A DNA stretch of 64,000 nt, from assembly GCA_044892525.1 (NCBI GenBank), contig CM097885.1, positions 26,786,001 through 26,850,000 of the forward strand, in the 5' to 3' direction. The translations under genes were made by a program, and so were the position numbers. Source of the stretch: Schmidtea polychroa. Its lineage: Eukaryota. Below the pieces are notes generated by a model. The model was not told where the DNA came from, did not search any database, and worked only from the letters and a program-made list of their open reading frames with translations. Positions 26,191-30,600 of the stretch are shown piece by piece; position 1 is the first letter of the stretch, and every line of letters begins with the position of its first letter.

Positions 26191-26901
26191 ATGGAAGGAC
26201 AAGAAAATAATATTCTGAGATGTATGATGGCTGGCAGCAATGGTAAAATATTATTATTTTATTTATTTTTATATTTATTTTATAGATGATTTGTGGTACG
26301 AAGTTACTGAAAATGAAGATGGATTTATTTTAAATTGTACGTATGGTAATTTTATTTTTATTTATTAATATTATTATTATTATTTAGACGTTATAATGGT
26401 GAGCGATGATGAAGATCCTATAATTATTAGCGACAATGACGATACAATAAAAATTATTAGCGACAATGACGATACAATAGTCATTAGTGAGGATGATGAT
26501 GATGTATCAAGTAATTTTTTATTATTATTGTATTAAATTAAAAACCTTTTTTAGGACATAGTCAAATGATTCCTAATCATATCGACAATGAGTTTTTCAT
26601 CGAACATGCGATGATAGAAAATACTCGTAAGTTTTTATTATTTTTATAATTAATTTTTAAAAATGATTTAGAAGCTTCAAATGTTTTGAATGATGCCCCT
26701 ATTCGGTATGCCCTCTCTGAGGATGATGCTCCAATTTATGCTGCAACTATTGATGAAACAATGCTAATTGATGCCCCCACTGCTATTGGAGAGGAAGCAG
26801 ATTATGCCTCTACTTTTATTGGAGATGCCCCTATTAGGGAGGTCTTTGGAAATATCCTCTCTGAGGACGAAACAGACTCTGATTCAGAGTCTAAATGTTA
26901 G
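26191..26901 (+). CDS. Five-exon acidic protein with tandem SIM-like motifs (178 aa)
   Basis: Exons 26191-26242, 26286-26345, 26388-26510, 26555-26626, 26672-26901; GT-AG introns of 43, 42, 44 and 45 nt, all phase 1; the joined 537 nt has no internal stop. Confidence 0.82.
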
Positions 26902-27106
26902 TTTTTTTTTTTCATGAATAATATTTTTTTATTAATCATAATTATTTATAAATTATTTATAAACTTAAATTATAACTTTCTTTAAATTATTTTAAAAAAT
27001 GCTGTAAATTTGTAATTGACGATTTAAATTTATATGAAGAAAATTTATATGAAGAAAATTTATATGAACAGATGATGAAAATTTATTAGAAAATGATGAT
27101 AAGGAT

Positions 27107-27244
27107 TCTAAATAAGGATTCTATATGTTTAGACAGGCCTAGCTACATTGGCCAATCTGTGCTAGACCTGTCTAAACTGAGGATGTACCAGTTACAGTAT
27201 ATAGAATTGGCAAAATATAGAAATGAATTTAACTGTGATATAAA
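27107..27244 (+). repeat. Duplicated internal PolB fragment upstream of PolB copy 2
   Basis: Near-identical to ~30293-30430 but has TTA (Leu) at 27129-27131 where both long copies have TAA. Confidence 0.9.
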
Positions 27245-27677
27245 ATGTCTCGCAGAACAGATGATGAAAATTTATATGAAATGATGATGAAAATGTAGAA
27301 GAAAATTTTGAAATATTCTTGAGAAAGTTATAATTTAAGTTTAGAAATAATAATAATAATAATAATAATAATAATAATATTAATAATAATAATAATAATA
27401 ATAATAATAATAATAATAATAATAATAATAATAATAATAATAATAATAATAATAATAATAATAATAATAATAATAATAATAATAATACCTTTAAATTTCC
27501 ATGTCTTTGATCTAACTGCTAATAATATTTCCTTTATTAATAATTGTTAATAGTTATTCAGTTTTATAATTATTGTCTAATAAAAACCTGAATAACTACT
27601 AACAATTGTTAATAAAGATATTAAACATTCTATATTACAACAATATTTAGATAATTATTAAATAAATTTATTAATAG

Positions 27678-30600
27678 GCCAATTATATCCTCGGTATTGC
27701 ATGTCTTCGACTGGGCATACTAAAGTATGTCACAAAAACATGAAAAAATACTATGGGCTAGAAAAAATCTAAGGTTTGACGTGGAGAAAGACGCCTTAGT
27801 ACAGATAGCAATAACACCAAAAATTATTCAAAAACTAGTATCAGAAATGAACGGTATGGGGCCCATTAAAATTCAGTTCACGGTTCTCATACAATTTGAG
27901 AAAGATGGCGAAATCCGAGATAATTTTTTCTCCAATAACGCCAAAGTTTTTTCAGAAAACTTTTTAATCAATGGCATCACTAAATTAAATAATAAGATAG
28001 AAAAATTCACATATTTAGGTAGCGGATGGCGGGTTGTTAAAATAAAAGAAATTGACTTCATAATAAATAAGTATAAGATTATGAATAGGTTAGTTGGACA
28101 TAGTTATATCCCCACCCCGACAGCGTTAAAGTCTAAATACGCAATTGTCAATATCCAGAACACAGATGATGATATGTGTTTTATATATAGTGTTCTAGCC
28201 CTCTTAAAGCGTGATGTTATACGCAGAAATAAGCATCGAGTTAGTGCTTACCAAAATTATTTGGATGAAATTAATTTTGACCCCATTAGTGATTGCTAGA
28301 TGAGATTAAGTAACATACCTAAATTCGAACGCAAAAACCGTGAACTGAACTTAGCTATTAACGTTTTAATATATAGAAATAAACCAGCGAAACCTATCAA
28401 CAATGAAGATTATATCAACAATGAAGATTATATCCCTCATCATCCCCAGTTAGATATTATTCACCGATCTAAGGTTATAGGTGGTAAACCCATATATTTA
28501 TTATTATTAGAAGACGGTGATAATTTTCATTACACCGCAGTTTTTGATCTTCAAAAACTTATGAATTCACACCCAAATAGCTCCTGTCACCTTTGGATTC
28601 GCGTCAAATGGTGCCCACATTGTCTTAATGGCTTCAGACATAGGAGCGCTTATGATATCCATGTATCCATGTATCTATGCCGTAAGAATCAAATAGGTTC
28701 TACTTTATATACATTACCGAAAGAGAAAAATTTAATATTCTCAAACTATGCAAAAACAGTAACCCCGCCATTCGTGATATATGCCGATTTTGAGGCGATT
28801 TTACCTGAGGATATCACCCACCATCAAAAACACATGCCAATAACAGCAGGCATGTTACTAATTAACAATTATAACAAAACTAGACCTGCTATCTTTGTAA
28901 AAAATTTATTAGAGATAGAGTTAGGGACCATTGTCACTTCACAGGTAAGTATCTTGGTGCTGCCTGTAGGAAATGTAATGTGTCTCGCAGAATTCAGAGA
29001 CAGTTACCTGTTGTATTTCACAATTTGATGGGGTATGACCTCCATCATATCTTGAAGTATGGTTTGAATAATTTTCCTTCTTGGGAATTGAATATTATTC
29101 CAACCACTACGGAAAAATTTATCTCTCTCATCGCGTACATTAACAAACTGCCTGTTCGTTTTATTGACAGTATGCAGTTTGTTAATTCATCACTTGCAAA
29201 AGCTGTTAAGACTCTTTCCTATCTGCCTTTAACTTCTTCTGTTTTTGATGGCGCAATTGTTCGAGCCAAAGGTATCTTCCCTTATGACTTCGCTACATCT
29301 CTTGAGGTCCTGGAATCAACTCTTGAATTGCCTCCTATTTGGGATTCTGTGTCTAATGATGAATATGAATTAGCCCAAGTTATTTGGACTCAACAAAATT
29401 GCAACAATATGTTAGACTATATGTTAACATACCTTAAACTTGATGTGTTTCTCCTCGCAGATTATTTTACACAATTCCGTGAAAAGGCCATTGCATACAA
29501 TGGTCTTGAGCCTCTAAATTTTTATGGTATTCCCGGTATGTCATGGGCCTCAGCGCTTATGACATTAAAGGAACCCATTGAACTTTTGCAGGACATGGAA
29601 ATGTTTAATTTCTATGAAGGAGGGATACGGGGTGGGTTAACATTTGTTAACAAACATTATGTTGTAAGTTCTGAAGACACAGAACTCTTGTATATAGATA
29701 TAAACAACTTGTATGGTTGGGCCTTAAGCCAAAATCTTCCGTATGGTGATTTTGAATGGGTGTATGATGACCTTGATTCTGTCTTGTATGAATGTATGAA
29801 TGCTGATATTGATAACCTTCCATATGGCTATACTATGGAGGTTGATATCGATATCCCTGATTGCTTGCATGATTTTTTGAATGATTTTCCGATTGCTCCG
29901 GAAAAAATGTGCCCGCCAGATTCAAAAGTTGAGAAGCTGATGCTTACGCATTGGCCGAAGAAGAACCATGTTCTTCATTGGCGACTTCTCAAGTTGTATA
30001 TTGAATTGGGGGCTTTAATTAAAAATGTACATAGGGCAATTAAATTTAAGCATGCACCTATTTTTAAAGATTACATATCGACTAATACTAATTTGCGCTC
30101 AAATTCTACATGCGAGCTGCATAGAGATTTATATAAATTATTTAATAATAGTCTGTATGGGAAATCCGTGGAAAACCTTAAAAAACGGATGAATTTGAGG
30201 CTATGCAATTCAGCTGAAAAGATGATTGTATATGCCTCAAAACCTACATTCAGAAAATCTATCAGAATTGATGATGATCTGATTGCAGCTCATCTAAATA
30301 AGGATTCTATATGTTAAGACAGGCCTAGCTACATTGGCCAATCTGTGCTAGACCTGTCTAAACTGAGGATGTACCAGTTACAGTATATAGAATTGGCAAA
30401 ATATAGAAATGAATTTAACTGTGATATAAATATCGTTGCCGGCGACACCGACTCCTTTTTCTTAGAGATAAAGCACTGTAAGCTTGACACTCTTTTGCCG
30501 GCAATGATTCGTGATAATCTTCTAGACACTAGTAATTATGATCCTGCTCATCCTTTGTATTCAAAGAGTTTGGATTCTGTGATAGGGAAATTTAAGGATG

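What the first reader, a model, noticed from the sequence alone, without database searches (positions are those of the whole stretch)
26191..27760. PolB starts at a conserved phase-1 splice acceptor, possibly sharing leader exons with the upstream gene
Seen: in three copies the PolB frame extends ~20 codons upstream of the aligned ATG to an AG acceptor: 8727 (TAG|GT-KLYPRYCQASGHSKSCHKTM), 27678 (TAG|GC-QLYPRYCMSSTGHTKVCHKNM) and 38698 (CAG|GT-QLYPDCCQRTDHGPGCHDAM). This forms a conserved C..H..CH...CPxC cluster. All upstream donors are also phase 1 (26243, 26346, 26511, 26627; element D 38169, 38374), so any could join in frame. Inference: alternative splicing makes either the short acidic protein or leader-PolB, reminiscent of adenovirus E2B, where pol and pTP get their start from a small distant exon.
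Basis: partly seen in the sequence, partly recalled or inferred. Interest (0 to 1): 0.75.

Follow-up and report, generated by a model that had tools for sequence, protein, structure and literature searches.

The report
Splice completes Polinton polymerase zinc finger
The DNA polymerase gene of a virus-like jumping element in this animal genome has no start codon in front of its conserved first domain and likely gets one from five small upstream exons, whose last splice would supply the first cysteine of a predicted zinc-binding domain; spliced RNA has not been seen, and nothing found here shows a second, short product.

Summary
Coordinates and phases hold. The acceptor AG|G-x-LYP is kept in 74 of 76 distinct sites from five subfamilies, with no in-frame ATG before it. 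It is present in all five subfamilies (57 of 70 rows) and is the only donor of this copy that puts Cys at the junction. 31 of 33 scorable metagenomic homologues carry that Cys in one frame. So the 'upstream gene' is most likely the spliced N-terminus of one Polinton pPolB gene, not a separate gene lending exons. Alternative splicing is possible but unsupported: the short product's stop is not conserved, and in two subfamilies the leader is not acidic. The 27678 copy itself lacks CPxC (deletion) and is broken. Integrase, protease and a Bcl-2-like gene of the same element also carry introns, whereas vertebrate and nematode Maverick core genes are described as intronless. The Cys/His domain folds confidently with no structural match. 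No RNA evidence was obtained. The scan noted this spliced leader before on other DNA of this genome.

The parts
16810..32490 (.). Polinton/Maverick copy (subfamily B) that holds the finding; TIRs of about 615 bp, 6-bp target duplication TTTCTA on both sides
   Evidence: core genes
26191..26242 (+). Leader exon 1 (ATG, 52 nt, phase-1 end). The CCAAT/TATA-like stretch that sister copies have just upstream is deleted in this copy near 26150
26286..26345 (+). Leader exon 2 (60 nt); W.EVTE.E motif shared with subfamilies A and C
26388..26510 (+). Leader exon 3 (123 nt); repeated I-x-I/V-S-D/E-D motifs (SUMO-interaction-like, a recalled motif, untested)
26555..26626 (+). Leader exon 4 (72 nt)
26672..26896 (+). 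Leader exon 5 (225 nt, acidic); ends in the T of the junction Cys codon
26897..27677 (+).
27678..27757 (+). Acceptor and first half of the Cys/His domain; second half and linker deleted in this copy
27757..31001 (+). Rest of pPolB (terminal-protein region, vOTU-like motifs, endonuclease-VII-like insert, PF03175), broken by stops and a frameshift in this copy
8727..8944 (+). Same acceptor and whole Cys/His domain in a subfamily A copy; leader exons not present upstream
38106..38373 (+). Last two leader exons of a subfamily D copy (38106-38168, 38215-38373; donors 38169, 38374); the last is Asn/Lys-rich, not acidic
38698..38915 (+). Acceptor and Cys/His domain of the subfamily D copy; mirror copy about 9.6 kb before the window start
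22144..22188 (+). Inferred phase-1 intron in the integrase core (QTDL-G|KEF), body an ATT repeat
25440..25477 (+). Inferred phase-2 intron right after the protease start codon

Best explanation
The 'upstream gene' and PolB are most likely one multi-exon Polinton pPolB gene, whose five phase-1 leader exons would be spliced in order, the last one (donor 26897) onto the acceptor at 27678, building the first Cys of a predicted two-zinc domain. Shown in DNA: exon lengths and phases, donors and acceptor kept across five subfamilies, coding constraint upstream of the internal ATG, the junction Cys matching intron-free homologues, and a CCAAT/TATA-like arrangement before the leader ATG but none near the acceptor. 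Inferred: the host spliceosome removes four 42-45-nt introns and one 0.2-1.2-kb intron. The product is a polyprotein: variable low-complexity leader (59-177 aa) + C-x6-C-x4/5-H-x3-C and CPxC-x14-H-x2-H domain + linker + terminal protein + vOTU + exonuclease/polymerase. Guess: the zinc domain binds nucleic acid (the element's own ends), and the leader supplies start codon and nuclear or SUMO-type contacts. The window copy itself is probably dead.
For: Acceptor AG in 74 of 76 sites, AG+GT/GC in 71. Terminal donor T|GT(A/T)A(G/A) in frame in 57 of 70 rows over all five subfamilies, while the exon before it varies in steps of three (135-225 nt in A, 183-225 in B). T at -1 in 5 of 5 terminal donors but in none of the 15 short-intron donors of the representative copies. 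Only donor 26897 gives Cys. 55 metagenomic homologues: of the 33 with a scorable C-H-C-CPxC pattern, 31 have a Cys 5-7 residues upstream in the same frame, spacing 7 in the closest ones as here; 13 listed proteins run on into pPolB motifs. A homologue that includes the Cys folds at mean pLDDT 89.5; our exon without it, on a shallower alignment, scores 56.8 with residues 1-24 below 50. Synonymous changes at all 7 invariant codons before the ATG. ATTGG..TATAAA lies 45-90 nt before the leader ATG in 17 of 19 long A/B/C loci and is found in 23 of 28 E rows, with no hit within 400 nt of the acceptor (pattern chosen after seeing the sequences). The same element needs splicing elsewhere: integrase intron 29-114 nt, not a multiple of three in 9 of 16 measurable copies of 30; protease ATG exon with 36-37-nt intron in 16 loci.
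Against: No RNA was seen (one search gave no runs; three protein searches found no junction-spanning protein or any relative). 13 of 70 rows lack the terminal donor by my pattern (mutated donor, earlier frameshift or GTAATT); rows include repeats of the same place and both arms of palindromes, and copies are related by descent. The internal Met is also invariant in alignment A1, and several homologues are called from it, so a shorter product from that ATG is not excluded. Zinc binding, the TP/vOTU labels and proteolysis are inferred from motifs and a paper, not tested. The two folds differ in alignment depth as well as in the Cys.
Confidence: 0.8

Rival explanations
1. Regulated switch: the same linear gene, but the long last intron is often retained or cleaved, so that a short acidic leader-only protein is made in place of polymerase in some cell states.
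Against: The stop position varies from 0 to 23 codons. There is no AATAAA in the first 200 nt of the intron in A, B or C, though shuffles also give none in 21-36% of cases, so this is weak. D and E leaders are short, Asn/Lys-rich and unrelated. GCATG is absent from the A, D and E reference introns.
Confidence: 0.12
2. One reading: an earlier donor (26243, 26346, 26511 or 26627) joins 27678, skipping the acidic exon, which is the terminal exon of a separate short gene, as in adenovirus E2B.
For: All four donors are phase 1, so such joins stay in frame; 26627 is a perfect GTAAGT.
Against: These joins give Gly, Gly, Ser or Arg where 31 of 33 homologues have Cys. The acidic exon ends in a conserved donor, and has no conserved stop or poly(A) signal. 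All-phase-1 introns are also what duplication of symmetric exons leaves behind (inference).
Confidence: 0.05
3. No splice: PolB starts at the internal ATG (or a near-cognate codon) from a promoter in the spacer, and the upstream exons are a separate gene.
For: The internal Met is invariant in A1; gene callers start several homologues there.
Against: Codons before the ATG are under protein constraint; conservation starts exactly at the AG; no promoter-like pattern within 400 nt; the domain would lose four Cys/His.
Confidence: 0.03

Closest known systems
Polintons/Mavericks of animals (vertebrate Mavericks, PMC8097293 passages; nematode Mavericks, bioRxiv 10.1101/2022.07.12.499685 passages; Alpha adintoviruses, PMC8502044 passages)
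   Same: TIRs, 6-bp target duplication, pPolB, rve integrase, A32-type ATPase, adenain-type protease in one 15.7-kb unit.
   Different: PMC8097293 saw no introns in genes of intact elements, and the nematode preprint calls the core genes intronless (introns only in cargo). Here polymerase, integrase and protease carry GT-AG introns by DNA evidence, and polymerase and protease have their start codon in an upstream exon.
TP-vOTU-Exo-Palm pPolB polyprotein (bioRxiv 10.1101/2024.03.18.585575, abstract and passages)
   Same: Region order after the linker and candidate vOTU Cys/His motifs.
   Different: An extra N-terminal Cys/His domain and a spliced leader; 'zinc', 'intron' and 'splic' do not occur in that text.
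Adenovirus E2B (PMC11304566 passage; PMC2397415 table, 9-nt first exon of pTP)
   Same: A replication protein whose start codon comes from an upstream exon.
   Different: E2B joins shared 5' exons to two separate ORFs by alternative acceptors. Here there is one acceptor, one ORF with TP and polymerase fused, and a 59-177-codon leader that completes a domain.
C2H2 zinc fingers (Kaiso/ZBTB33)
   Same: Best Foldseek rows, over 33 columns of the CPxC..H..H half.
   Different: E 1.3 or worse; the CCHC half has no match; VIA-align best Z 2.5.

Membership tests
Polinton/Maverick | Terminal inverted repeats of several hundred bp | tested here: met
   16809-17422 against 32491-31880, 97% over 616 nt
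Polinton/Maverick | 6-bp target site duplication | tested here: met
   TTTCTA on both sides, ends AGTAT.. / ..CTACT
Polinton/Maverick | Protein-primed family B polymerase | tested here: met
   PF03175, E 7e-29, 101 bits over cut-off 25.8 on 28884-30314; Exo and Pol motifs in four subfamilies
Polinton/Maverick | Retroviral-like integrase | tested here: met
   PF00665 E 2e-6 (28.4 bits, under the cut-off 32.6, with the intron read through) plus a weak Chromo hit
Polinton/Maverick | Packaging ATPase and adenain-type protease | tested here: met
   PF04665 28.3 bits and PF00770 28 bits, both above cut-off
Polinton/Maverick | Jelly-roll major and minor capsid proteins | tested here: inconclusive
   ORFs at 22746-23811 and 24128-25407 fit by position and size; Pfam gave no capsid family; not folded
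Polinton/Maverick as described in vertebrates and nematodes | Intronless core genes (a description, not a definition) | tested here: not met
   GT-AG introns in pPolB, integrase and protease by DNA comparison; RNA not seen
Alpha adintovirus PolB | OTU domain ahead of a PF03175 polymerase | tested here: inconclusive
   PF03175 met; OTU judged only from recalled motifs N-x-N..CF and HY, not folded
Adenovirus E2B-type alternative splicing | Shared 5' exons joined to two different terminal coding exons (separate pTP and pol ORFs) | tested here: not met
   One continuous ORF from the acceptor holds both regions; no second acceptor-ORF found
Adenovirus E2B-type alternative splicing | Two mRNA forms shown in RNA | not testable with these tools
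   no sequencing runs were obtained
RING / SP-RING / C2H2 zinc fingers | Profile or fold match of the Cys/His domain | tested here: inconclusive
   Pfam only weak CPxC-driven rows; UBR1 E 0.76; Foldseek E 1.3 or worse; VIA-align Z 2.5 at best

The most novel reading that the evidence does not exclude
This Polinton lineage has put its polymerase under a host splicing switch: the long last intron is the control point, retention yields a SIM-rich leader protein with a job of its own, and splicing completes a zinc-binding domain of a new fold without which the element cannot replicate, so host splicing factors decide in which cells the element multiplies.
Probability: 0.12. Interest if true: 0.8.

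Novelty: new variant of a known kind. Interest (0 to 1): 0.5.

Why it matters
Polinton core genes are described as intronless, and their polymerases are annotated from the first ATG of the long ORF. If this holds, such annotations miss the start, a leader and half of a conserved zinc domain. The element would then depend on nuclear transcription and the host spliceosome, like adenoviruses, which are thought to descend from Polintons. The junction is a sharp prediction: one RNA-seq junction per subfamily, always giving Cys. The domain is widespread on metagenomic pPolBs, sometimes in tandem, and has no Pfam or fold match, so it is a target for structure and binding work.

Tried and rejected
RNA evidence: no runs were obtained. 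Word-indexed protein searches found no relative at E 0.01; the ESM Atlas gave no usable hit. Contig scans: none in viral contigs; the one metagenome locus, L101, is a bacterial gene region with no polymerase, a chance match, and was dropped; two scans with A2 found no usable pattern. So the DNA of the 55 homologues was not seen, and their own introns (several short ones end in G-K-I/F, like a read-through donor) are untested. RING or SUMO-ligase reading of SIM-like leader plus Cys/His domain: no profile or fold support; kept only as a guess. Poly(A) test: uninformative, since most genes of the element lack AATAAA near their stop and shuffles often give none. One core-identity computation failed for family E and was redone by blastp. 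Kapitonov and Jurka 2006 is not held; I know it only through PMC8097293. Paper searches for a spliced Polinton polymerase and for palindromic Polintons listed nothing that describes either; I read passages of eight papers only, no supplements, and Repbase entries and subscription papers were not searchable, so prior description is not excluded.

Full report
Setting. The window is C1:26786001-26850000 of a 781-Mb AT-rich genome. The finding lies in a 15.7-kb element, 16810-32490, with 97%-identical inverted ends and a TTTCTA target duplication. It encodes an A32-type ATPase, rve integrase, adenain-type protease and a PF03175 polymerase: a Polinton/Maverick. This copy is broken: stops and a frameshift in the polymerase, a deletion near 27755 that removes the CPxC half of the Cys/His cluster and the linker, and loss of the CCAAT/TATA-like stretch before ATG 26191. 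The host was not identified.

Observation. From ATG 26191 the exons are 52, 60, 123 and 72 nt, each ending in phase 1. Among fetched loci the domain falls into five subfamilies, A-E. The polymerases of A, B, C and E are 54-83% identical and their Cys/His domains 45-80%; D was seen only in fragments. After removing identical sites, AG precedes the frame at the same place in 74 of 76 sites, and the next two bases are GT or GC in 71. The frame upstream closes after 3-39 codons with no Met. Between the acceptor and the ATG, all seven invariant residues show synonymous codon differences, and a 3-nt indel keeps the frame. That stretch is therefore translated, and its start must come from elsewhere.

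The missed donor. The same donor closes the last leader exon in every subfamily: CAAT|GTAAGA (A), AAAT|GTTAGT (B), CGAT|GTTAGT (C), AAAT|GTAAGT (D), CAAT|GTAAGT (E). It was found in 57 of the 70 rows where the last short intron could be placed; the 13 others have a changed donor, an earlier frameshift or GTAATT. Rows include some places fetched twice and both arms of palindromes, and copies are kin, so the five subfamilies are the real units. The base before GT is T in all five, and in none of the 15 short-intron donors of the representative copies.

Independent check of the junction. A profile of the exon-encoded part (A1, which lacks the Cys) found 55 proteins at E 0.001 among 1.84 billion. 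33 of them have a scorable C..H..C..CPxC pattern; 31 of these have a further Cys 5-7 residues upstream in the same frame, and the other two begin within five residues. The closest read C-x-[LIF]-[YF]-P-x-x-C with spacing 7, as the spliced junction would. The other 22 start inside the domain or lack its first half; one (P0048) looks like a repeat and is probably a chance hit. Thirteen listed proteins continue into pPolB motifs, so this is an N-terminal pPolB domain of a wider lineage. Sources are ENA and JGI contigs without names (10 looked up); their DNA was not seen. A homologue with the Cys folds at mean pLDDT 89.5. Our exon without it reaches 56.8, with residues 1-24 under 50, though on a shallower alignment. 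No Pfam family, solved sequence, Foldseek row (best Kaiso C2H2 at E 1.3) or VIA-align row (best Z 2.5) identifies the domain. Eight ligands, CCHC plus CCHH, suggest two zinc ions (inference).

One gene or two. The leaders have 3 to 5 exons, all phase 1. A, B and C are acidic, share a W.EVTE.E motif and carry I-x-I-S-D-D repeats; D and E are short, Asn/Lys-rich and unrelated. Read-through of the last donor stops after 0 codons in B and C (the TAG inside GTTAG), 2 in E and most A, and up to 23 in D and some A, so a stop is not conserved. AATAAA is absent from the first 200 intron bases in A, B and C, but that is within chance. An ATTGG..TATAAA arrangement lies before the leader in 17 of 19 long A/B/C loci and 23 of 28 E rows, never within 400 nt of the acceptor (pattern chosen after the fact). 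Against my reading: the internal Met is invariant in A1, and no RNA was seen. The simplest model is one gene spliced in order; a retained-intron product is possible but nothing here requires it.

Splicing elsewhere in the element. The integrase core is interrupted at QTDL-G|KEF by a GT-AG insert of 29-114 nt, not a multiple of three in 9 of 16 measurable copies out of 30 (14 were too long for my window or changed). The protease has its ATG before a 36-37-nt GT-AG insert in 16 loci (38 nt in the window). A Bcl-2-like gene has a 44-nt intron. Splicing is thus a trait of the whole element.

Comparison. PMC8097293 (passages) found no introns in genes of intact vertebrate Mavericks; the nematode preprint (passages) calls core genes intronless, with introns only in cargo. 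The pPolB architecture paper (abstract and passages) gives TP-vOTU-Exo-Palm and mentions no zinc domain or splicing. PMC8502044 and 10.1101/2023.08.22.554363 (passages) report no spliced PolB in the passages seen. In adenoviruses, pTP and pol come from separate mRNAs with identical 5' exons and different junctions (PMC11304566 passage; 9-nt pTP exon in the PMC2397415 table). So it works like E2B only in borrowing a start codon from upstream; it is not an E2B-type arrangement. Searches listed no paper describing a spliced Polinton polymerase; Repbase, subscription papers and supplements were not seen.

Earlier notes. My reading was written down before the first look-up. The scan had noted the spliced leader, the junction Cys, the integrase intron and the palindromic elements on other DNA of this genome, and spliced polymerase leaders in other genomes. 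These are unchecked AI notes and are not counted as evidence.

Verdict. Observation partly confirmed; interpretation partly supported. A Polinton variant with spliceosomal introns in its core genes and an uncharacterised zinc-binding domain completed by the last splice (0.8). Interest 0.5.

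Noticed in passing
G000:C1:180452929-180467418 (L081-L082), L083-L092; window 38090-43320 with mirror arm 9-11 kb before the window: Giant palindromic elements: in five of six places examined, two 6.8-8.3-kb inverted arms, 98.8-99.7% identical, each with one pPolB ORF and no other long ORF; AGTAG ends; 6-bp target duplications in 4 of 5 printed. 40 head-to-head pairs among 150 scored matches; both arms have the same frame length in 31 pairs, 20 of them shortened. Noted before by the scan.
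   Followed up: partly
window 22144-22188; L102-L131: Integrase intron whose body is an ATT microsatellite, 29-114 nt, frame-breaking if unspliced in 9 of 16 measurable copies.
   Followed up: yes
window 25435-25477: Protease start codon in a 5-nt coding piece before a 36-38-nt intron; the unspliced frame has no Met before the GEHW motif.
   Followed up: yes
window 18347-18858: Two-exon Bcl-2-like gene (intron 18644-18687); Pfam Bcl-2 only E 0.034 on exon 1.
   Followed up: partly
window 12225-12227 and 30315-30317: The two neighbouring polymerase copies, of different subfamilies, carry a premature stop at the same codon, absent from the 37 other sites matched; possibly local gene conversion.
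   Followed up: no
window 27107-27244: 138-nt piece of the element's own polymerase 3' region inserted in the last intron, 99% like 30293-30430.
   Followed up: no
L031, L041, L044 last intron; window 8270-8290, 8430-8455, 31301-31327: A short self-complementary motif (GTAG.TGCA...GCATGCA.CTAC type) repeated in the last intron of subfamilies A, B and C and near the right TIR; role unknown.
   Followed up: no
P0003, P0022, P0031, P0037, P0041, P0043, P0049, P0051: Metagenomic homologues carry the Cys/His domain in 2-3 tandem copies, some behind classical C2H2 fingers.
   Followed up: partly
G000:C1:74549871/74563060, 43398416/43399851, 206933119/206938540: A few pairs of the domain face each other (tail to tail) instead of back to back.
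   Followed up: no
window 44465-45458; 54403-55700: ISXO2-like transposase (PF12762) and a 24-bp tandem array.
   Followed up: no
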